A DNA stretch of 64,000 bases from the NCBI RefSeq assembly GCF_003790525.1, contig NZ_CP033635.1, one strand, 5' to 3'. Below are positions 30,481 to 49,761 of the stretch, piece after piece (the stretch's first letter is position 1; each line of letters starts with the position of its first letter). This DNA is from Escherichia coli. Lineage in GTDB: Bacteria; Pseudomonadota; Gammaproteobacteria; Enterobacterales; Enterobacteriaceae. The notes beneath the pieces were generated by a model. That model saw only the letters and a program-made list of their open reading frames with translations, did not search any database and had not been told where the DNA came from. The position numbers and the translations under genes are program-made.

Positions 30481-30785
30481 TACTACCTGCGCTAGCGCAG
30501 GCCAGAAGAGGCGCGTTGCCCAAGTAACGGTGTTGGAGGAGCCAGTCCTGTGATAACACCTGAGGGGGTGCATCGCCGAGGTGATTGAACGGCTGGCCAC
30601 GTTCATCATCGGCTACAGGGGCTGAATCCCCTGGGTTGTCACCAGAAGCGTTCGCAGTCGGGCGTTTCGCAAGTGGTGGAGCACTTCTGGGTGAAAATAG
30701 TAGCGAAGTATCGCTCTGCGCCCACCCGTCTTCCGCTCTTCCCTTGTGCCAAGGCTGAAAATGGATCCCCTGACACGAGGTAGTT
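30481..30785 (+). ncRNA. lysC 5' leader containing a lysine riboswitch (L-box)
   Basis: About 300-nt leader between a TTGACA/TATAAA-like promoter (about 30445-30476) and the lysC ATG; contains conserved L-box strings AGAGGCGC, GGAGGA, CCGAGGUGAUUGAAC. Confidence 0.75.
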
Positions 30786-33880: not shown

Positions 33881-34828
33881 ATGGAAAACAGTGACGATAT
33901 CCGTTTGATTGTGAAGATTGCCCAACTCTATTACGAACAGGATATGACGCAGGCGCAAATCGCGCGCGAACTGGGTATTTACCGCACCACCATCAGCCGC
34001 TTGCTTAAACGAGGCCGCGATCAGGGAATTGTCACCATCGCCATCAACTATGACTACAACGAAAATCTCTGGCTGGAGCAGCAACTGAAGCAAAAGTTTG
34101 GCCTGAAAGACGTTGTGGTGGTGTCGGGAAATGATGAGGATGAAGAGACTCAACTGGCGATGATGGGGTTACACGGCGCGCAACTGCTGGATCGCTTGCT
34201 GGAACCTGGCGATATTGTCGGTTTTTCCTGGGGCCGCGCGGTGAGCGCACTGGTTGAAAACTTGCCGCAGGCGGGGCAATCGCGGCAGTTAATTTGCGTG
34301 CCGATTATTGGCGGCCCGTCCGGTAAACTCGAAAGCCGCTATCACGTAAACACATTAACCTACAGCGCGGCAGCGAAGCTGAAAGGGGAATCGCATCTCG
34401 CGGATTTTCCGGCTCTGCTGGATAACCCATTAATTCGTAATGGGATCATGCAGTCTCAGCACTTTAAAACCATCTCTGCCTACTGGGATAATCTGGATGT
34501 CGCCCTGGTGGGAATTGGCTCACCGGCCATTCGCGACGGCGCTAACTGGCATGCGTTTTATGGTGGTGAAGAGAGTGACGACCTGAATGCCCGCCAGGTT
34601 GCTGGCGATATTTGCTCGCGCTTTTTTGATATTCACGGCGCAATGGTTGAAACGAATATGAGCGAAAAAACACTCTCTATCGAAATGAATAAATTAAAGC
34701 AGGCACGGTATTCCATTGGCATTGCCATGAGCGAAGAAAAATACAGCGGAATTGTTGGTGCACTGCGTGGAAAATATATTAATTGTCTGGTAACGAATAG
34801 CAGCACAGCTGAACTATTACTGAAATAA
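33881..34828 (+). CDS. sorC: sorbose operon transcriptional regulator (SorC family)
   Basis: Track ORF trimmed to MENSDDIRLIVKIAQLYYEQDMTQAQIARELGIYRTTISRLL (HTH) preceded by RBS aggagg; 315 aa; sugar-phosphate-binding C-terminal domain. Confidence 0.8.
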   Translation: MENSDDIRLIVKIAQLYYEQDMTQAQIARELGIYRTTISRLLKRGRDQGIVTIAINYDYNENLWLEQQLKQKFGLKDVVVVSGNDEDEETQLAMMGLHGAQLLDRLLEPGDIVGFSWGRAVSALVENLPQAGQSRQLICVPIIGGPSGKLESRYHVNTLTYSAAAKLKGESHLADFPALLDNPLIRNGIMQSQHFKTISAYWDNLDVALVGIGSPAIRDGANWHAFYGGEESDDLNARQVAGDICSRFFDIHGAMVETNMSEKTLSIEMNKLKQARYSIGIAMSEEKYSGIVGALRGKYINCLVTNSSTAELLLK

Positions 34829-34897
34829 AAATCTTCCCGATGTTTACCGTAATAAAAATTACGGCGGGTCCCTATTATCTAAAATCAGGAGTCTGTT

Positions 34898-35704
34898 ATG
34901 CAAACGTGGTTAAATTTGCAGGATAAAATCATTATTGTCACCGGCGGCGCATCCGGTATTGGTCTGGCGATTGTGGATGAATTATTAGCACAAGGCGCGA
35001 ATGTACAGATGGTCGATATTCACGGTGGCGATGGTCAATATGAAAACCATAAAGGTTATCAGTTCTGGCCGACCGATATTTCCAGCGCCAAAGAGGTAAA
35101 TCATACGGTAGCAGAAATTATCCAGCGTTTTGGTCGCATCGACGGTCTGGTCAATAACGCCGGGGTCAATTTCCCGCGTCTGCTGGTCGATGAGAAAGCG
35201 CCTGCCGGGCAGTATGAACTCAACGAAGCGGCATTCGAAAAAATGGTCAATATCAACCAGAAAGGCGTTTTTCTGATGTCGCAGGCGGTGGCGCGACAGA
35301 TGGTCAAACAACATGATGGCGTGATTGTGAATGTTTCCTCAGAAAGTGGGCTGGAAGGCTCAGAAGGCCAAAGCTGTTACGCCGCGACCAAAGCCGCGCT
35401 CAATAGCTTCACGCGCTCCTGGTCGAAAGAGCTGGGTAAGCACGGTATCCGTGTGGTCGGTATCGCGCCGGGGATTCTGGAAAAAACAGGACTGCGTACG
35501 CCGGAATATGAAGAAGCGCTGGCGTGGACGCGCAATATCACCGTCGAGCAGCTGCGTGAAGGCTATACCAAAAACGCCATTCCTATTGGGCGCGCCGGAA
35601 GATTAGCAGAAGTGGCTGATTTTGTTTGTTATCTGCTGTCTGAACGCGCCAGCTATATCACCGGAGTAACCACTAACATTGCGGGCGGCAAAACGCGCGG
35701 CTAA
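34898..35704 (+). CDS. sorD: D-glucitol-6-phosphate dehydrogenase (short-chain dehydrogenase/reductase)
   Basis: 268 aa; TGGASGIG Rossmann motif and YxxxK (YAATK) catalytic motif. Confidence 0.8.
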   Translation: MQTWLNLQDKIIIVTGGASGIGLAIVDELLAQGANVQMVDIHGGDGQYENHKGYQFWPTDISSAKEVNHTVAEIIQRFGRIDGLVNNAGVNFPRLLVDEKAPAGQYELNEAAFEKMVNINQKGVFLMSQAVARQMVKQHDGVIVNVSSESGLEGSEGQSCYAATKAALNSFTRSWSKELGKHGIRVVGIAPGILEKTGLRTPEYEEALAWTRNITVEQLREGYTKNAIPIGRAGRLAEVADFVCYLLSERASYITGVTTNIAGGKTRG

Positions 35705-35713
35705 GGAGGCTTT

Positions 35714-36121
35714 ATGGTCAATGCCATTTTTTGCGCCCACGGCAAATTAGCCTGCGCCATGCTGGAATCGGTTCAGATGGTGTACGGCGATGCCAGGGTC
35801 GAGGCCGTTGAATTTGTGCCCGGCGAGAACGCCGGAGACATTGTGGCAAAGCTGGAGAAGTTAGTGAGCATTCACAATCATGACGAGTGGCTAATCGCCG
35901 TGGATTTACAGTGCGGCAGCCCGTGGAATGCGGCAGCGATGCTTGCGATGCGCAATCCTCGTCTGCGGGTAATCAGCGGCCTTTCTCTGCCGCTGGCGCT
36001 CGAACTGGTTGATAACCAGGACAGCATGAATATTGATGAACTGTGTGAACACCTGACGCAAATCGCAAAGCAAATCTGCGTCGTCTGGAGACAGGTGGCA
36101 ACAGCGGAGGAGGATTTCTGA
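35714..36121 (+). CDS. sorF: PTS sorbose-specific EIIA component (mannose family)
   Basis: 135 aa; its stop overlaps the sorB start (TGATG). Confidence 0.8.
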   Translation: MVNAIFCAHGKLACAMLESVQMVYGDARVEAVEFVPGENAGDIVAKLEKLVSIHNHDEWLIAVDLQCGSPWNAAAMLAMRNPRLRVISGLSLPLALELVDNQDSMNIDELCEHLTQIAKQICVVWRQVATAEEDF

Positions 36122-36615
36122 TGAACATTACGCTCGCCCGCATTGATGACCGCCTGATCCACGGCCAGGTCACTACCGTCTGGTCTAAGGTGGCTAACGC
36201 CCAACGCATTATTATCTGCAATGACGAAGTTTATAACGATGAAGTTCGCCGGACATTATTGCGTCAGGCTGCGCCACCGGGAATGAAGGTTAACGTGGTC
36301 AATATTGAAAAAGCCGTCGCGGTTTATCACAACCCGCAATATCAGGACGAAACCGTTTTTTATCTTTTCACTCGCCCACAAGATGCCTTAGCAATGGTTC
36401 GCCAGGGGGTAAAAATAGGTACCCTGAATATTGGCGGTATGGCCTGGCGTCCTGGTAAGAAACAGTTAACCAAAGCAGTTTCATTAGATGACGATGATAT
36501 TAACGCATTTCATGAGTTAAATAATCTTGGCGTCATACTGGATTTACGCGTCGTAGCGTCAGATCCCTCAATCAATATTATCGACAAAATAAACGAACAG
36601 TTAATCGCAAATTAA
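36121..36615 (+). CDS. sorB: PTS sorbose-specific EIIB component
   Basis: 164 aa; MNITLARIDDRLIHGQV (conserved His of mannose-family IIB). Confidence 0.8.
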   Translation: MNITLARIDDRLIHGQVTTVWSKVANAQRIIICNDEVYNDEVRRTLLRQAAPPGMKVNVVNIEKAVAVYHNPQYQDETVFYLFTRPQDALAMVRQGVKIGTLNIGGMAWRPGKKQLTKAVSLDDDDINAFHELNNLGVILDLRVVASDPSINIIDKINEQLIAN

Positions 36616-36680
36616 ATAATAGCGCCTGTGTACATATGCTTTAACAGGCAGGGATGACGACACTTAAAAGGTGACAAATC

Positions 36681-37478
36681 ATGGAAATAAGTACCCTACA
36701 AATTATTGCTATATTTCTTTTTTCCTGTATTGCCGGAATGGGCAGCGTGCTGGATGAATTTCAGACTCATCGTCCGTTAATTGCCTGTACGGTGATTGGT
36801 TTAATTCTCGGTGATTTAAAAACCGGAATTATGCTCGGTGGTACGCTGGAATTGATAGCTCTCGGCTGGATGAACGTCGGCGCGGCGCAATCTCCGGATT
36901 CTGCACTCGCCAGCATAATCTCCGCCATTCTGGTTATCGTTGGTCAGCAAAGCATCGCCACCGGAATCGCCATCGCGTTGCCTGTGGCTGCGGCAGGCCA
37001 GGTGCTGACGGTGTTTGCCCGTACCATCACAGTAGTGTTCCAGCACGCGGCGGATAAAGCAGCAGAAGAGGCGCGGTTTCGCACTCTCGATATTCTGCAT
37101 GTCTCCGCGCTTGGCGTGCAGGCGCTGCGCGTTGCTATTCCGGCACTGATTGTCTCGCTGTTCGTCAGCGCCGATATGGTGAGCAATATGCTGAGCGCCA
37201 TTCCCGAATTTGTGACCCGTGGACTGCAGATTGCTGGCGGTTTTATCGTGGTGGTCGGTTACGCCATGGTGCTTCGCATGATGGGCGTGAAATATTTGAT
37301 GCCTTTCTTTTTCCTCGGTTTCCTCGCAGGTGGCTACCTCGATCTCAGTCTGCTGGCGTTCGGTGGCGTCGGCGTGATCATGGCCCTGCTCTACATCCAG
37401 TTAAATCCACAGTGGCGTAAAGCTGAACCACATCCCCAGACCACCACTATCACCGCCCTTGACCAACTTGATGATTAA
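36681..37478 (+). CDS. sorA: PTS sorbose-specific EIIC component
   Basis: 265-aa polytopic membrane protein. Confidence 0.8.
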   Translation: MEISTLQIIAIFLFSCIAGMGSVLDEFQTHRPLIACTVIGLILGDLKTGIMLGGTLELIALGWMNVGAAQSPDSALASIISAILVIVGQQSIATGIAIALPVAAAGQVLTVFARTITVVFQHAADKAAEEARFRTLDILHVSALGVQALRVAIPALIVSLFVSADMVSNMLSAIPEFVTRGLQIAGGFIVVVGYAMVLRMMGVKYLMPFFFLGFLAGGYLDLSLLAFGGVGVIMALLYIQLNPQWRKAEPHPQTTTITALDQLDD

Positions 37479-37488
37479 CGGAGCCATC

Positions 37489-38313
37489 ATGGAACAGAGA
37501 AAAATTACACGCAGCGATCTGGTGAGCATGTTTCTGCGCTCCAACCTGCAACAGGCATCCTTTAACTTTGAACGTATTCACGGGCTGGGTTTTTGCTACG
37601 ACATGATCCCCGCCATCAAACGACTTTACCCATTAAAAGAGGATCAGGTTGCGGCGCTCAGGCGACACCTAGTGTTCTTCAATACCACGCCAGCCGTATG
37701 TGGCCCGGTCATCGGCGTCACTGCCGCCATGGAAGAGGCGCGAGCCAACGGCGCGGAAATTGATGACGGTACCATTAACGGCATCAAAGTCGGCCTGATG
37801 GGACCGTTGGCAGGTGTTGGCGATCCACTGGTCTGGGGAACGCTGCGCCCGATTACCGCCGCGCTCGGCGCATCTCTGGCACTTTCGGGCAACATTCTCG
37901 GCCCCCTGCTGTTCTTCTTTATTTTCAATGCAGTACGTCTGGCAATGAAATGGTATGGGCTGCAACTGGGCTTTCGTAAAGGGGTGAATATCGTCAGCGA
38001 TATGGGCGGTAATTTGCTGCAAAAACTGACCGAAGGCGCGTCGATTCTCGGGCTGTTTGTAATGGGCGTACTGGTGACCAAATGGACATCGATCAACGTG
38101 CCGTTAGTGGTTTCACAAACGCCTGCCGCCGATGGTGCCACCGTCACTATGACCGTACAGAACATTCTCGACCAGCTTTGCCCTGGATTGCTGGCGCTCG
38201 GTTTGACGCTGCTGATGGTACGTCTGCTCAACAAAAAAATTAACCCGGTATGGCTGATTTTCGCCCTGTTTGGTTTAGGGATTATCGGTAATGCGCTGGG
38301 CTTCCTGTCCTGA
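37489..38313 (+). CDS. sorM: PTS sorbose-specific EIID component
   Basis: Trimmed to MEQRKITRSDLVSMFLRSNLQQASFNFER (274 aa), preceded by RBS ggag. Confidence 0.8.
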   Translation: MEQRKITRSDLVSMFLRSNLQQASFNFERIHGLGFCYDMIPAIKRLYPLKEDQVAALRRHLVFFNTTPAVCGPVIGVTAAMEEARANGAEIDDGTINGIKVGLMGPLAGVGDPLVWGTLRPITAALGASLALSGNILGPLLFFFIFNAVRLAMKWYGLQLGFRKGVNIVSDMGGNLLQKLTEGASILGLFVMGVLVTKWTSINVPLVVSQTPAADGATVTMTVQNILDQLCPGLLALGLTLLMVRLLNKKINPVWLIFALFGLGIIGNALGFLS

Positions 38314-38364: not shown

Positions 38365-39594
38365 ATGAAAACAACAGCTCTGCGTCTTTATGGCAAACGT
38401 GACCTGCGTCTGGAAACCTTTGACCTTCCTGAAATGCAGGAGGATGAAATCCTCGCGACGGTGGTCACTGACAGCCTGTGCCTCTCTTCCTGGAAAGAGG
38501 CCAATCTGGGGGAAAACCATAAAAAAGTACCCGACGATGTGGCGACCAATCCCATCATCATCGGCCACGAATTTTGCGGCGATATTCTGGCCGTGGGTAA
38601 AAAGTGGCAGCACAAATTCCAGCCGGGTCAGCGTTATGTGATTCAGGCCAACCTGCAACTCCCCGACCGCCCGGACTGCCCCGGCTACTCCTTCCCGTGG
38701 GTAGGCGGCGAAGCGACGCATGTGGTTATTCCCAACGAGGTCATGGAACAAGATTGCCTGCTGGCATACGACGGCGAAACCTATTTTGAAGGCTCGCTGG
38801 TTGAACCGCTTTCCTGCGTGATTGGCGCGTTCAACGCCAACTATCATCTTCAGGAAGGTAGTTATAACCACACGATGGGGATTCGCCCGCAAGGGCGCAC
38901 GCTGATCCTCGGCGGCACCGGACCAATGGGACTGTTGGCGATTGATTATGCGCTGCATGGACCCGTTAACCCGTCGCTGCTCGTTATTACCGATACCGAC
39001 AACGACAAATTGAGTTATGCGCGCAAGCACTATCCATCAGAACCGCAAACACTGATTCATTATCTCAATGCCACCGATGCAGCATTTGATACGTTAATGG
39101 CGCTGAGTGGCGGTCACGGCTTCGATGATATTTTCGTCTTTGTGCCTAATGAAGGACTGGTGACTCTCGCCTCTTCCTTGCTGGCGACAGATGGTTGCCT
39201 GAATTTCTTCGCCGGACCGCAGGATAAACATTTCAGCGCGCCAATTAATTTCTACGATGTGCATTATGCATTTACCCACTACGTGGGCACGTCAGGCGGC
39301 AATACCGACGACATGCGCGCGGCGGTCAAACTGATCGAAGAGAAAAAAGTGCAGGCCGCAAAAGTGGTAACACATATTCTTGGGCTGAATGCCGCGGGCG
39401 AAACCACGCTTGAATTGCCTGCCGTCGGCGGCGGGAAAAAACTGGTGTATACCGGGAAATATCTGCCGCTGACATCACTCACGCAGATTCAGGATGAAGA
39501 ACTGGCGGCGATTCTGGCGCGTCATCAGGGAGTCTGGTCCGGCGAGGCGGAGCAGTACCTGCTCGCCCATGCAGAGGCGATTTCCCATGATTAA
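38365..39594 (+). CDS. sorE: L-sorbose-1-phosphate reductase (zinc-type alcohol dehydrogenase family)
   Basis: Trimmed to MKTTALRLYGKRDLRLETF (409 aa); MDR zinc-ligand region GHEFCGDIL. Confidence 0.75.
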   Translation: MKTTALRLYGKRDLRLETFDLPEMQEDEILATVVTDSLCLSSWKEANLGENHKKVPDDVATNPIIIGHEFCGDILAVGKKWQHKFQPGQRYVIQANLQLPDRPDCPGYSFPWVGGEATHVVIPNEVMEQDCLLAYDGETYFEGSLVEPLSCVIGAFNANYHLQEGSYNHTMGIRPQGRTLILGGTGPMGLLAIDYALHGPVNPSLLVITDTDNDKLSYARKHYPSEPQTLIHYLNATDAAFDTLMALSGGHGFDDIFVFVPNEGLVTLASSLLATDGCLNFFAGPQDKHFSAPINFYDVHYAFTHYVGTSGGNTDDMRAAVKLIEEKKVQAAKVVTHILGLNAAGETTLELPAVGGGKKLVYTGKYLPLTSLTQIQDEELAAILARHQGVWSGEAEQYLLAHAEAISHD

Positions 39595-40399
39595 TCGCGA
39601 TACTCAACTCTGCATGTCGCTGGCCGGCCGCCCCGGTAACTTCGGCACGCGTTTTCACAATTATCTTTATGAAAAGCTGGGGCTGAATTTCATCTATAAA
39701 GCGTTCACCACCCAGGATATTGCAGCGGCGGTGAAAGGGATTCGCGCGTTGGGTATTCGCGGTTGCGCTGTGTCGATGCCGTTTAAAGAAAGCTGCATGC
39801 CTTTTCTCGACGCGATCGATCCGTCGGCGAAGGTCATTGATTCCGTGAATACCATCGTGAATGACGACGGCAGGCTGACCGGGTTTAACACCGACTATAT
39901 CGCGGTGAAAAGCCTGATTACCCACCACCAGCTCAATACCACCACGCGAGTGATGATTCGCGGCAGTGGCGGCATGGGCAAAGCGGTGATTGCCGCCTTT
40001 CGCGACGCGGGGTTTACGGATGTTATCATTGCCGCCCGCAACCGCGAGAGCGGCCCGGCGCTGGCGAAGCAGTATGGGTTTCAGTGGCAACCGCAGCCGG
40101 AAGGCATCGCCTGCGACATTCTGGTCAACGTGACGCCCGTTGGCATGAGCGGCGGTAAAGAGAGCCATGAGCTGGCCTTCAGCGAAGCGATGGTCTCAAC
40201 GGCAAGCGTCGTTTTTGATGTCGTGGCCTTGCCGCCGGAAACGCCGCTCATTCGCCTGGCGCAACGGCTTGATAAGCAGACGATTAGCGGTGCGGAGGTG
40301 ATTGCTTTACAGGCCGTCGAGCAGTTCGCAATGTATACCGGCGTACGGCCTGATGCGCAACTGATTGCTGAGGCGGCACAATTTGCACGAGAAGGATAA
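39587..40399 (+). CDS. shikimate/quinate 5-dehydrogenase-like protein (AroE/YdiB family), eighth gene of the sor cluster
   Basis: 270 aa; start overlaps the sorE stop (ATGATTAA); AroE-like motifs: N-terminal substrate region, SMPFKE (catalytic Lys), NTD (catalytic Asp), Gly-rich Rossmann GSGGMGKA. Confidence 0.7.
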   Translation: MINRDTQLCMSLAGRPGNFGTRFHNYLYEKLGLNFIYKAFTTQDIAAAVKGIRALGIRGCAVSMPFKESCMPFLDAIDPSAKVIDSVNTIVNDDGRLTGFNTDYIAVKSLITHHQLNTTTRVMIRGSGGMGKAVIAAFRDAGFTDVIIAARNRESGPALAKQYGFQWQPQPEGIACDILVNVTPVGMSGGKESHELAFSEAMVSTASVVFDVVALPPETPLIRLAQRLDKQTISGAEVIALQAVEQFAMYTGVRPDAQLIAEAAQFAREG

Positions 40400-40521
40400 G
40401 AAACATCAGCGCCTTGTTTGCCACGCCAGAAGCAATGCGCAACATCGTGAGCCATGTCAGTAAGCGGTTAAAATCACAGTGGTAGCATGGCTCCCGTGAT
40501 TTCTTACTAACCGGAGAAGTA

Positions 40522-41211: not shown

Positions 41212-41251
41212 ATGAATTGCCGGATGCATGATCCGGCATCTTGTTCATCGT

Positions 41252-42932: not shown

Positions 42933-43095
42933 GAGTTCAGGTTCTCCTTATCGTTATATGTTCCTGAAGCAATTGAATGACCAAAGGACCGGAAACACGC
43001 TGACTGGCATCTTTACTGTGCCTTTTGACCTTCGTTTTTCCGGCTAAGATTATTCCAGCCTGTTTCCAGTATAAGTGTTTCATATTAATAAAGAG

Positions 43096-43120
43096 ACAGG
43101 GCACTCATTGAGCGCCCTGT
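43096..43120 (-). terminator. probable terminator downstream of metH
   Basis: Hairpin acagggcactcattgagcgccctgt with flanking T-rich sequence on both strands. Confidence 0.5.
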
Positions 43121-43151
43121 TTGTTGTAAGGAAAAGTGACAGATTTGTGAA

Positions 43152-49627: not shown

Positions 49628-49761
49628 TGCCGGATGCGGCGTAAACGCCTTATCCAGCCTACGTTCGGCAACGGTTGTAGGCATGATAAGACGCGCAAGC
49701 GTCGCATCAGGCATCGTGCACCGATTGCCGGATGCGGCGTAAATGCCTTATCCGGCCTACA
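49628..49761. repeat. BIME: REP elements in the aceA-aceK intergenic region
   Basis: Three REP palindromes at 49628-49662, 49677-49712 and 49726-49761. Confidence 0.8.

What the first reader, a model, noticed from the sequence alone, without database searches (positions are those of the whole stretch)
39587..40399. An AroE-like (shikimate/quinate dehydrogenase family) gene translationally coupled to the end of the sorbose operon
The canonical sor operon as I know it from Klebsiella and E. coli is seven genes, sorCDFBAME. Here an eighth ORF of 270 aa starts inside the sorE stop (ATGATTAA overlap) and has the hallmarks of shikimate dehydrogenase (SMPFKE catalytic Lys, NTD catalytic Asp, Gly-rich NAD(P)-binding loop), but the usual NTDGxG motif is NTDYIA, which suggests a diverged substrate. 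Nothing in the L-sorbose pathway as described (sorbose-1-P to glucitol-6-P to fructose-6-P) needs such an enzyme, so it may act on a different ketose or polyol phosphate or on a side product. This is the best candidate in the window for an undescribed activity.
Basis: partly seen in the sequence, partly recalled or inferred. Interest (0 to 1): 0.6.

Follow-up and report, generated by a model that had tools for sequence, protein, structure and literature searches.

The report
sdhL gene ending the sorbose operon
The extra gene at the end of this E. coli sorbose operon is real but already described: it is sdhL, a shikimate-dehydrogenase-like enzyme with a solved ortholog structure, switched on by sorbose, not needed to grow on sorbose, and deleted in about 94% of sorbose-positive E. 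coli.

Summary
A 270-aa ORF (39587-40399, +) starts inside the sorE stop (ATGATTAA) and carries the SMPFKE, NTDYIA and GSGGMGKA motifs.

It is not an undescribed enzyme. It is the ortholog of H. influenzae HI0607, the founding member of the SDH-L/SdhL class (PDB 1NPY, E 3e-112). It passes NCBIfam NF009202 (467 bits, cut-off 306) and fails the aroE and ydiB models.

A 2025 mSystems paper already names it sdhL in E. coli ST648. Its supplement shows L-sorbose induction equal to the sor genes (RNA log2FC 6.0, protein 6.8).

What this work adds:
- The eight-gene unit sorCDFBAME-sdhL is ancestral in Enterobacteriaceae (22 of 80 species loci).
- Of 2,865 sorE-positive complete E. coli genomes, 2,689 share one 701-bp internal deletion plus a codon-7 stop. 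Only 176 keep the gene.
- Kluyvera, Pluralibacter and Brenneria lost the sor catabolic genes but kept sdhL intact under equally strong purifying selection.
- In Pasteurellaceae the gene follows cysE, with no sor genes nearby.
- A CFT073 clone lacking sdhL let DH5alpha grow on L-sorbose.

Most likely it is an NADP(H)-dependent accessory oxidoreductase co-expressed with sor. Its physiological substrate is unknown and is probably not shikimate. Interest is low to moderate.

The parts
39587..40399 (+). sdhL: 270-aa SDH-L-class member of the shikimate dehydrogenase family, ortholog of H. influenzae HI0607
   Evidence: ORF and translation. PDB 1NPY E 2.9e-112 over residues 1-268. NCBIfam NF009202 at 467 bits against a 306 cut-off. 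Pfam PF08501 and PF01488. RefSeq annotates it 'shikimate 5-dehydrogenase'.
39587..39594 (+). 8-nt overlap ATGATTAA between the sdhL start and the sorE stop (translational coupling)
   Evidence: Read directly from the sequence. The same overlap occurs in Pseudocitrobacter, Klebsiella, Raoultella and Serratia sp. H1w. Citrobacter has a 1-nt spacer, TAACATG.
39574..39577 (+). Shine-Dalgarno-like GAGG, 9 nt upstream of the sdhL ATG and inside sorE
   Evidence: Sequence. The equivalent GAGG/GAGGA is conserved in other genera, including the rebuilt Kluyvera sorC-sdhL junction.
39645..40345 (+). The 701-bp segment of sdhL that is deleted in about 94% of sor-positive E. coli
   Evidence: BLAST of the L002 junction against the window aligns 39501-39644 and then 40346-40415. 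The junction is present in 2,689 of 5,426 complete genomes. The core of the gene is present in only 176.
38365..39594 (+). sorE, L-sorbose-1-phosphate reductase, the gene immediately upstream that overlaps sdhL
   Evidence: RefSeq annotation of the identical stretch in AR_0077. ORF list.
33881..38313 (+). sorC (33881-34828), sorD (34898-35704), sorF (35714-36121), sorB (36121-36615), sorA (36681-37478), sorM (37489-38313): regulator, glucitol-6-P dehydrogenase and sorbose PTS
   Evidence: ORFs. NCBIfam hits for the SorD-like and SorC-like proteins. RefSeq annotation.
40400..40521 (+). 122-bp spacer between sdhL and pepE with no strong intrinsic terminator; only a weak 5-bp hairpin at 40486-40498
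   Evidence: Consensus scan. The first strong bidirectional terminator lies after pepE at 41218-41238.

Best explanation
The ORF is sdhL, an intact ortholog of Haemophilus influenzae HI0607 (the SDH-L class of the shikimate dehydrogenase family). It is a two-domain, Rossmann-fold, NADP(H)-dependent oxidoreductase that keeps the family's catalytic Lys67/Asp103 pair but has a remodelled substrate pocket. It is the ancestral eighth and last gene of the enterobacterial sor transcription unit. It is made from the SorC-controlled sor mRNA by translational coupling to sorE, so L-sorbose induces it together with the sor genes. It is not a step of the sorbose-1-P to glucitol-6-P to fructose-6-P route and is not needed for growth on L-sorbose. 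It provides a separable accessory redox activity on a substrate still unknown, most likely not shikimate. Most E. coli have lost it, while other genera keep it even after losing the sorbose catabolic genes.

Shown: identity, class, operon position, distribution, deletion history and purifying selection. Taken from the literature: induction by sorbose, dispensability, and weak NADP+-dependent shikimate oxidation by the ortholog. Inferred: co-transcription in this strain, NADP(H) use by this protein, and a non-shikimate physiological substrate.
For: Identity:
- 1NPY (HI0607) matches at E 2.9e-112 over the full length.
- NF009202 scores 467 bits against a 306 cut-off. aroE TIGR00507 scores 165.5 against 200.2, and ydiB-type NF009390 scores 96.5 against 349, so both fail.
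- Pfam finds both domains.
- K67, N88, D103 and Q242 are kept. N18, G20, A61, S63, Y104, A106 and A214 replace the AroE residues Ser, Ser, Asn, Thr, Gly, Gly and Tyr (alignment to AroE 1NVT). All of these are invariant or nearly so across 15 SdhL proteins of 63-100% identity.

Operon membership:
- There is an 8-nt start/stop overlap with sorE and no promoter-like or terminator-like site in between.
- The same sorCDFBAME-sdhL order is found in 22 of 80 species-level loci across Escherichia, Pseudocitrobacter, Citrobacter, Klebsiella, Raoultella, Enterobacter, Serratia and Entomohabitans, and in K. pneumoniae and K. variicola assemblies.
- A decayed copy of the unit sits at a different locus (leuD-sgrR) in Brenneria, so the unit moved as a whole.

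Expression:
- In ST648 strain PBIO730, sdhL has log2FC 6.01 (RNA) and 6.77 (protein) with L-sorbose, against 5.65-5.67 (RNA) for sorA, sorF and sorB (PMC12817954 supplement).

Dispensable and separable:
- 2,689 of 2,865 sorE-positive E. coli share a 701-bp deletion plus a TAA at codon 7.
- The CFT073 7.5-kb clone that gave DH5alpha growth on L-sorbose ends in a primer identical to the remnant allele (PMC2831201).
- Kluyvera (sorC-sdhL only), Pluralibacter (a remnant of the sorE 3' end, then sdhL) and Brenneria keep sdhL intact. Their dN/dS is 0.05-0.11, against 0.06-0.16 in sor-positive genera.
- In 17 Pasteurellaceae loci the gene lies 7-60 bp after cysE in a yibN-secB-gpsA-cysE block, with no sor genes within 10 kb.
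Against: - No enzyme assay or knockout exists for this protein. The primary SDH-L paper (Singh et al. 2005, J Biol Chem 280:17101) could not be read here, so the roughly 1000-fold lower turnover and the lack of quinate activity rest on my memory of it.
- Tight coupling, co-mobilisation with sor, and a selectively maintained sorC-sdhL pair in Kluyvera suggest a closer functional tie to sorbose or its regulator than the word 'accessory' implies.
- Dispensability was shown in K-12 and CFT073 backgrounds, which have aroE and ydiB and could mask a role.
- Co-transcription in this strain is inferred from sequence and from another ST648 strain's omics data.
Confidence: 0.8

Rival explanations
1. SdhL acts on a sorbose-related compound. 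It would be a SorC-regulon oxidoreductase for a six-membered-ring ketose or polyol, such as L-sorbose itself, 5-keto-D-fructose, L-sorbosone or a phosphorylated derivative. It would salvage or detoxify a side product, or widen the substrate range of the operon.
For: - It is induced by L-sorbose as strongly as the sor genes and overlaps sorE.
- The eight-gene unit is conserved and was co-mobilised.
- Kluyvera keeps only the SorC-like regulator and sdhL as a compact pair, with both genes under purifying selection.
- The shikimate dehydrogenase family does contain a keto-sugar enzyme, 5-ketofructose reductase (PDB 7COK; T. morbirosei KFR, PMC7954740). 5-ketofructose reduction gives D-fructose or L-sorbose depending on the enzyme.
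- The residues that bind the shikimate carboxylate are replaced.
Against: - The gene is lost in 94% of sor-positive E. coli without loss of sorbose growth.
- Orthologs at 63-69% identity in Pasteurellaceae, Lautropia, Neisseria, Pseudomonas, Rahnella and Ewingella have no sor genes within 10 kb and sit in unrelated housekeeping contexts.
- It is no closer to 7COK (62.7 bits) than to ordinary AroE (94-117 bits).
- A putative shikimate dehydrogenase from C. pasteurianum, picked for similarity to KFR, was inactive on 5-ketofructose.
Confidence: 0.17
2. It is a genuine third shikimate dehydrogenase isozyme that boosts aromatic amino-acid synthesis when cells grow on sorbose. This matches the grouping used in the 2025 mSystems paper, which lists it with shikimate-pathway genes.
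For: - Family membership is clear, and PGAP names it 'shikimate 5-dehydrogenase'.
- HI0607 oxidises shikimate with NADP+ (PMC3089730 citing Singh 2005).
- aroL and the trp operon rise with sorbose in the same experiment.
Against: - It fails the aroE and ydiB equivalog cut-offs.
- The Ser-x-Ser, Asn, Tyr and Gly-x-Gly positions of the AroE pocket are replaced and invariant in their new form.
- From my memory of Singh 2005, turnover is about 1000-fold below AroE.
- E. coli already has aroE and ydiB, and H. influenzae has its own aroE (my knowledge).
- Most sor-positive E. coli have deleted it.
Confidence: 0.08
3. The linkage is historical only. sdhL is a stand-alone housekeeping-type gene that happened to fuse to the 3' end of sor in an enterobacterial ancestor. 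Its co-expression with sor has no adaptive meaning.
For: - Contexts outside Enterobacteriaceae are heterogeneous: after cysE, rplS or hypF, or next to alkB.
- Selection strength is the same with or without sor.
- Loss is independent in both directions.
Against: - The overlap or near-overlap with sorE is preserved across genera with dS above 1.
- The unit is found at a second locus in Brenneria.
- Deletions in Kluyvera retained exactly the regulator plus sdhL and rebuilt a ribosome-binding site.
Confidence: 0.2

Closest known systems
H. influenzae HI0607 / SDH-L (SdhL) class of shikimate dehydrogenases, PDB 1NPY (Singh et al. 2005)
   Same: The two are about 66-70% identical over the full length, with the same length (270 vs 271 aa). 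They share the catalytic K67/D103 and the NTDYIA, GSGGM and ARN motifs. The protein passes the NCBIfam equivalog built on this group.
   Different: The genomic setting differs. The Haemophilus gene follows cysE in a secB-gpsA-cysE block. The E. coli gene overlaps sorE and is sorbose-inducible.
E. coli ST648 sdhL as reported in PMC12817954 (mSystems 2025)
   Same: It is the same gene at the same locus. It was found only in ST648 among six sequence types and is induced by L-sorbose at RNA and protein level.
   Different: That paper places it 'upstream' of the operon and treats it as an ST-specific insertion. The sequence shows it lies 3' of sorE and overlaps it. It is ancestral, and the other E. 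coli lineages carry a shared deletion.
AroE, shikimate 5-dehydrogenase (EC 1.1.1.25), e.g. PDB 1NVT and 1NYT
   Same: It has the same two-domain fold family, the Lys/Asp catalytic pair, the conserved Asn88 and Gln242, and an Arg in the NADP-type 'xRx' position after the second Rossmann strand.
   Different: Identity is only about 25-30%. It scores below the aroE cut-off. The pocket positions HSxSP, NVT, NTDGxG and Tyr become NFGTR, AVS, NTDYIA and Ala.
YdiB, quinate/shikimate dehydrogenase (PDB 1NPD, 1O9B)
   Same: It is a paralogous member of the same family in E. coli (95 bits).
   Different: It scores 96.5 bits against a 349 cut-off for NF009390. From memory of Singh 2005, HI0607 has no reported quinate activity.
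5-ketofructose reductase of the shikimate dehydrogenase family (PDB 7COK; T. morbirosei KFR, PMC7954740)
   Same: It is a family member whose real substrate is a keto-sugar chemically adjacent to L-sorbose and D-fructose. This is a precedent for non-shikimate substrates.
   Different: There is no special sequence affinity: 62.7 bits, below many AroE hits. I could not obtain the 7COK sequence to compare pocket residues.

Membership tests
SDH-L / SdhL class (HI0607-like) | Full-length orthology to HI0607 above a curated family threshold | tested here: met
   1NPY matches at E 2.9e-112 over residues 1-268. NF009202 scores 467.4 bits against a 306 cut-off.
SDH-L / SdhL class (HI0607-like) | Shikimate_dh_N substrate domain plus a Rossmann NAD(P) domain, with the catalytic Lys (SMPFK) and Asp (NTD) | tested here: met
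   Pfam PF08501 and PF01488. K67 and D103 are invariant in 15 family members.
SDH-L / SdhL class (HI0607-like) | Class-specific pocket signature (NFGT, AVSMPFK, NTDYIA, DVVA-P) instead of the AroE residues | tested here: met
   Alignment to HI0607 and to AroE 1NVT. Invariant columns N18, G20, A61, S63, A106 and A214, with Y104 nearly invariant.
SDH-L / SdhL class (HI0607-like) | Weak NADP+-dependent shikimate oxidation and no quinate oxidation | not testable with these tools
   Only second-hand for the ortholog (PMC3089730). The primary paper could not be read.
AroE (EC 1.1.1.25) | Passes the aroE equivalog models and has the shikimate-binding Ser-x-Ser, Asn/Thr, Tyr and NTDGxG | tested here: not met
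   TIGR00507 scores 165.5 against 200.2. NF001319 scores 242.8 against 252. The pocket positions are substituted.
YdiB quinate/shikimate dehydrogenase | Passes the NF009390 / NF010631 equivalog models | tested here: not met
   It scores 96.5 against 349 and 78.4 against 515.
L-sorbose (sor) operon | Same strand and contiguous with the sor genes, with no intervening terminator; conserved gene order in other genera | tested here: met
   There is an 8-nt overlap with sorE and no terminator-like site between them. 22 of 80 species loci share the order.
L-sorbose (sor) operon | Induced by L-sorbose together with the sor genes | not testable with these tools
   Published omics for ST648 strain PBIO730 give log2FC 6.01 (RNA) and 6.77 (protein), against about 5.65 (RNA) for sorA, sorF and sorB.
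L-sorbose (sor) operon | Required for L-sorbose utilisation | tested here: not met
   94% of sorE-positive E. coli carry the deletion remnant. The CFT073 clone conferring growth ends in the remnant allele.
5-ketofructose reductase class | Closer to KFR than to other family classes | tested here: not met
   7COK scores 62.7 bits and ranks 19th, below AroE and YdiB chains.

The most novel reading that the evidence does not exclude
SdhL is not a shikimate-pathway enzyme. It would be a SorC-regulon oxidoreductase whose true substrate is a sorbose-related ring ketose or polyol, or the SorC effector itself. The eight-gene sorCDFBAME-sdhL unit would then be the real ancestral sorbose operon, and the Kluyvera sorC-sdhL pair a minimal sensing-and-conversion module. 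This would at last assign a physiological role to the SDH-L class, which has lacked one since 2005.
Probability: 0.17. Interest if true: 0.55.

Novelty: already known. Interest (0 to 1): 0.3.

Why it matters
The practical effect is to correct the record. The gene is a described class (SDH-L) and is already reported next to sor in E. coli ST648. Treating it as a new activity, or as a true shikimate dehydrogenase as the automatic annotation does, would both be misleading.

The modest added value is evolutionary:
- The seven-gene 'canonical' sor operon of most E. coli is a deletion derivative of an eight-gene unit.
- sdhL and the sorbose catabolic genes have been lost independently of each other in different genera.
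- sdhL stays under strong purifying selection throughout.

This gives a concrete handle on the unresolved physiological role of SdhL: sorbose-inducible expression, a SorC-sdhL mini-module in Kluyvera, and natural knock-outs in E. coli.

Tried and rejected
- The primary SDH-L paper could not be read by DOI, PMC id or PubMed id. Searches for 'SDH-L', 'SdhL' and the Ael1/RifI classification papers found nothing usable. Kinetic statements therefore rest on second-hand citations and my memory.
- I looked for functional hints in non-enterobacterial neighbourhoods (Pasteurellaceae, Pseudomonas, Pantoea, Enterobacter soli, Rahnella/Ewingella, Neisseria, Zophobihabitans). The contexts are heterogeneous housekeeping genes such as cysE, rplS, hypF, alkB and yidA, and gave no pathway clue.
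- I considered that sdhL was at the rluF-pepE locus first and sor was inserted later. I rejected this. Pluralibacter retains the last ~35 nt of sorE in front of sdhL, and Brenneria has a sorD::sorE fusion remnant at another locus.
- I considered that the oddly diverged K. pneumoniae and K. variicola proteins (P0094, P0105) were decaying pseudogenes. I rejected this. Those assemblies have many fragmented genes, for example metH in pieces, so the frameshifts are assembly errors.
- I considered an internal promoter for sdhL or a terminator after it. The consensus scans found neither.
- I did not run structure prediction or fold search, because a ~70%-identical crystal structure exists.
- I could not compare pocket residues with 5-ketofructose reductase, because the 7COK sequence was not retrievable with the tools.
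Full report
**Observation.** The window region 30.8-43 kb is the E. coli lysC-yjbD-rluF / sorC-sorD-sorF-sorB-sorA-sorM-sorE / pepE-yjbB segment.
- A 270-aa ORF runs from ATG 39587 to the stop ending at 40399.
- Its ATG lies inside the end of sorE (…CAT GAT TAA), giving the 8-nt ATGATTAA overlap. A GAGG lies 9 nt upstream.
- The SMPFKE, NTDYIA and GSGGMGKA motifs are present.
- The mechanical ORF list extends the frame to an ATG at 39494. Fifteen homologs all start MIN(R/K)DTQLCMSL, so 39587 is the real start.

**Identity.** The protein matches PDB 1NPY, 'hypothetical shikimate 5-dehydrogenase-like protein HI0607' of H. influenzae, at E 2.9e-112 over residues 1-268. The next hits are ordinary AroE and YdiB chains at E 1e-32 and weaker.
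- It passes the NCBIfam equivalog NF009202 (467 bits, cut-off 306).
- It fails aroE TIGR00507 (165.5 against 200.2) and the ydiB-type model NF009390 (96.5 against 349).
- Pfam finds Shikimate_dh_N and Shikimate_DH.
- HI0607 is the founding member of the third class of the family, SDH-L or SdhL. PMC3608921 calls it 'class III shikimate dehydrogenase-like'. PMC3089730 summarises the 2005 study as a structure like AroE/YdiB that oxidises shikimate with NADP+.
- I could not open the primary paper. My recollection that turnover is about 1000-fold below AroE, with no quinate activity, is memory and not a tool result.

**Active site.** In the printed alignment to M. jannaschii AroE (1NVT), the catalytic Lys (K67) and Asp (D103) are kept, as are N88 and Q242.
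- Five AroE motifs are changed: HSFSP becomes NFGTR, NVT becomes AVS, NTDGIG becomes NTDYIA, the pocket Tyr becomes A214, and NRT becomes ARN.
- These replacements are invariant or nearly so in 15 SdhL proteins spanning 63-100% identity.
It is the hallmark of a known class, not a peculiarity of this gene.
- The assignment of the AroE positions to shikimate contacts is established knowledge of AroE-shikimate complexes and was not tested here.

[quoted passage not shown] - Co-induction with the operon is thus experimentally documented.
- The paper calls the gene 'upstream' and an ST-specific insertion. The sequence shows it lies 3' of sorE and overlaps it.

**Distribution in E. coli.** Of 5,426 complete genomes, 2,867 have a sorE match, full-length in 2,865. 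Only 176 have the core of sdhL. All 176 copies are chromosomal, 175 are at least 99% identical, and every listed one is annotated 'shikimate 5-dehydrogenase'.
- In a typical sor-positive strain (NZ_CP024263, L002), the 381 bp between sorE and pepE contain a remnant. It consists of the first 58 nt of sdhL, with GAT>GCT and CAA>TAA making a stop at codon 7, joined to the last ~70 nt, followed by a REP-like insert.
- The missing piece is window 39645-40345, which is 701 bp.
- That junction is present in 2,689 genomes.
- 2,689 plus 176 equals the 2,865 genomes with a full-length sorE match, so there was one old deletion, and the window's lineage keeps the ancestral state.

**Dispensability.** PMC2831201 cloned CFT073 c4981-c4987 as a 7.5-kb PCR product and obtained growth of DH5alpha on L-sorbose.
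- Its forward primer is identical to the remnant allele, including the TAA. It maps to the first 39 nt of the former gene and has 2 mismatches to the window.
- Seven genes without sdhL therefore suffice.
- ST131, which lacks sdhL, also grows on sorbose.

**Other species.** A scan of one genome per species returned 80 loci.

| Group | Loci | Layout |
|---|---|---|
| Pseudocitrobacter, Escherichia incl. E. albertii, Citrobacter, Klebsiella, Raoultella, Enterobacter, Serratia sp. H1w, Entomohabitans, one MAG | 22 | sorCDFBAME directly followed by sdhL, mostly between rluF and pepE |
| Kluyvera | 4 | rluF / sorC-like (70% identity) / 20 nt with a GAGGA / sdhL |
| Pluralibacter | 2 | rluF, then sdhL |
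| Brenneria | 1 | leuD-sgrR locus: sorC-like, sorD(1-203)::sorE(174-406) fusion remnant, then intact sdhL |
| Serratia silvae | 1 | truncated sorC-like gene, then sdhL |
| Other (Pasteurellaceae, Lautropia, Neisseria, Pseudomonas, Pantoea, Rahnella, Ewingella and others) | 50 | no sor genes within 10 kb |

- In the 22 full loci, the junction has the same 8-nt overlap or a 1-nt spacer. K. pneumoniae and K. variicola assemblies show the same layout.
- In P. gergoviae the last ~35 nt of sorE (…CACGCCGAGGAGATTTAA) are still in front of sdhL.
- These sor-less loci are therefore deletion derivatives of the eight-gene unit. The unit also existed at a second chromosomal site.
- In 17 Pasteurellaceae loci, sdhL sits 7-60 bp after cysE in a yibN-secB-gpsA-cysE block. 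Elsewhere it follows rplS or hypF, or lies next to alkB.

**Selection.** Pairwise Nei-Gojobori dN/dS values are as follows.

| Gene | Group | dN/dS |
|---|---|---|
| sdhL | Kluyvera (no sorDFBAME at the locus) | 0.05-0.09 |
| sdhL | Pluralibacter (no sor at the locus) | 0.11 |
| sdhL | sor-positive Citrobacter | 0.06-0.10 |
| sdhL | Klebsiella/Raoultella | 0.06-0.16 |
| sorC-like | Kluyvera | 0.07-0.135 |
| sorC | sor-positive genera | 0.03-0.06 |

- sdhL is a functional gene whose maintenance does not depend on the sorbose catabolic genes, at least at this locus.
- The Kluyvera sorC-like gene is also constrained, but more loosely than sorC in sor-positive genera.

**Signals.** No sigma-70-like site or terminator-like hairpin separates sorE from sdhL. 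There is no convincing terminator in the 122 bp before pepE. The first strong one follows pepE at 41218-41238. These are consensus scans only.

**Interpretation.** The best-supported account is that sdhL is the ancestral last gene of the enterobacterial sor unit.
- It is translated by coupling to sorE and induced by sorbose through SorC.
- It encodes an NADP(H)-dependent Lys/Asp oxidoreductase with a pocket that no longer looks like a shikimate site.
- It is outside the known sorbose-1-P to glucitol-6-P to fructose-6-P route and is dispensable for growth on sorbose. Its physiological substrate is unknown.

**Rivals.**
- (a) A sorbose-related ketose or polyol oxidoreductase. The coupling, co-mobilisation, the Kluyvera sorC-sdhL module and the precedent of a family member acting on 5-ketofructose support this. 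Loss in most E. coli, unrelated contexts elsewhere, and no special similarity to 7COK weaken it.
- (b) A true shikimate dehydrogenase isozyme. This is unlikely given the failed equivalog tests and the replaced pocket.
- (c) Purely historical linkage.

**Verdict.** The finding is real and was read accurately. It is a known class and, since 2025, a known gene at this position, so its novelty is 'already known'. What remains open is the 20-year-old question of what SdhL enzymes actually do. The natural E. coli deletion, the sorbose induction and the Kluyvera mini-operon make that question testable. I score interest at 0.3.

Noticed in passing
L002:8288-8676 (NZ_CP024263), corresponding to window 39587-40521: Typical sor-positive E. 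coli carry about 190 bp of REP/BIME-like sequence (GCCGGATGCGG…, GTAGGCCAGGTAAGCG…) between the sdhL remnant and pepE. The window lacks this insert.
   Followed up: partly
L013:8877-10813, also L014, L021 and L024 (Kluyvera spp.): This is a compact two-gene sorC-like/sdhL module with no sorDFBAME and a rebuilt ribosome-binding site 20 nt after the sorC stop. Both genes are under purifying selection. It could be a minimal regulator-enzyme pair.
   Followed up: partly
L073:7551-10822 (Brenneria sp.): A decayed sor unit lies at a different locus (leuCD … sgrR-thiBPQ). It has sorC-like, a sorD(1-203)::sorE(174-406) fusion remnant, no PTS genes, and an intact sdhL.
   Followed up: partly
sdhL-pepE gap in L012, L013, L014, L020, L026: A small pair of minus-strand ORFs (about 110 and 119 aa, HigB/HigA-like by eye) recurs between sdhL and pepE in several genera. 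This spacer is a variable insertion spot.
   Followed up: no
window 42933-43151, compared with L001:11634-12675: Strain AR_0077, identical to the window across sorE-sdhL, has two extra hypothetical genes (149 and 106 aa) between yjbB and metH. The window has only a 219-bp gap there.
   Followed up: no
H60, NZ_AP045174 (E. coli JNEC-KY178): One of the 176 sdhL-positive E. coli genomes carries a divergent allele at 91.6% identity, while the others are at least 99% identical. This could reflect recombination from another Escherichia lineage.
   Followed up: no
L006:~1500-2768 (E. albertii NBRC 107761): The sorE reading frame appears to end about 489 nt before sdhL, and the sdhL ORF extends upstream. 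This may be a sorE frameshift in this assembly.
   Followed up: no
window 30498-30694 (+): A lysine riboswitch lies upstream of lysC (Rfam RF00168, 99.5 bits). This is expected and ordinary.
   Followed up: no
window 55415-60913 (-): A complete rrn operon is present (5S, 23S, a spacer tRNA at 59214-59286, and 16S), with an isrC-family sRNA hit at 55415-55537. Two naRNA4 (REP-derived) hits lie at 16622-16692 and 49680-49757.
   Followed up: no
L083, L084 (K. pneumoniae and K. variicola assemblies): Both assemblies show many split genes (metH, aceK, yjbB, sorA/sorM). The unusual SdhL sequences P0094 and P0105 from them are probably indel artefacts and not real variants.
   Followed up: partly
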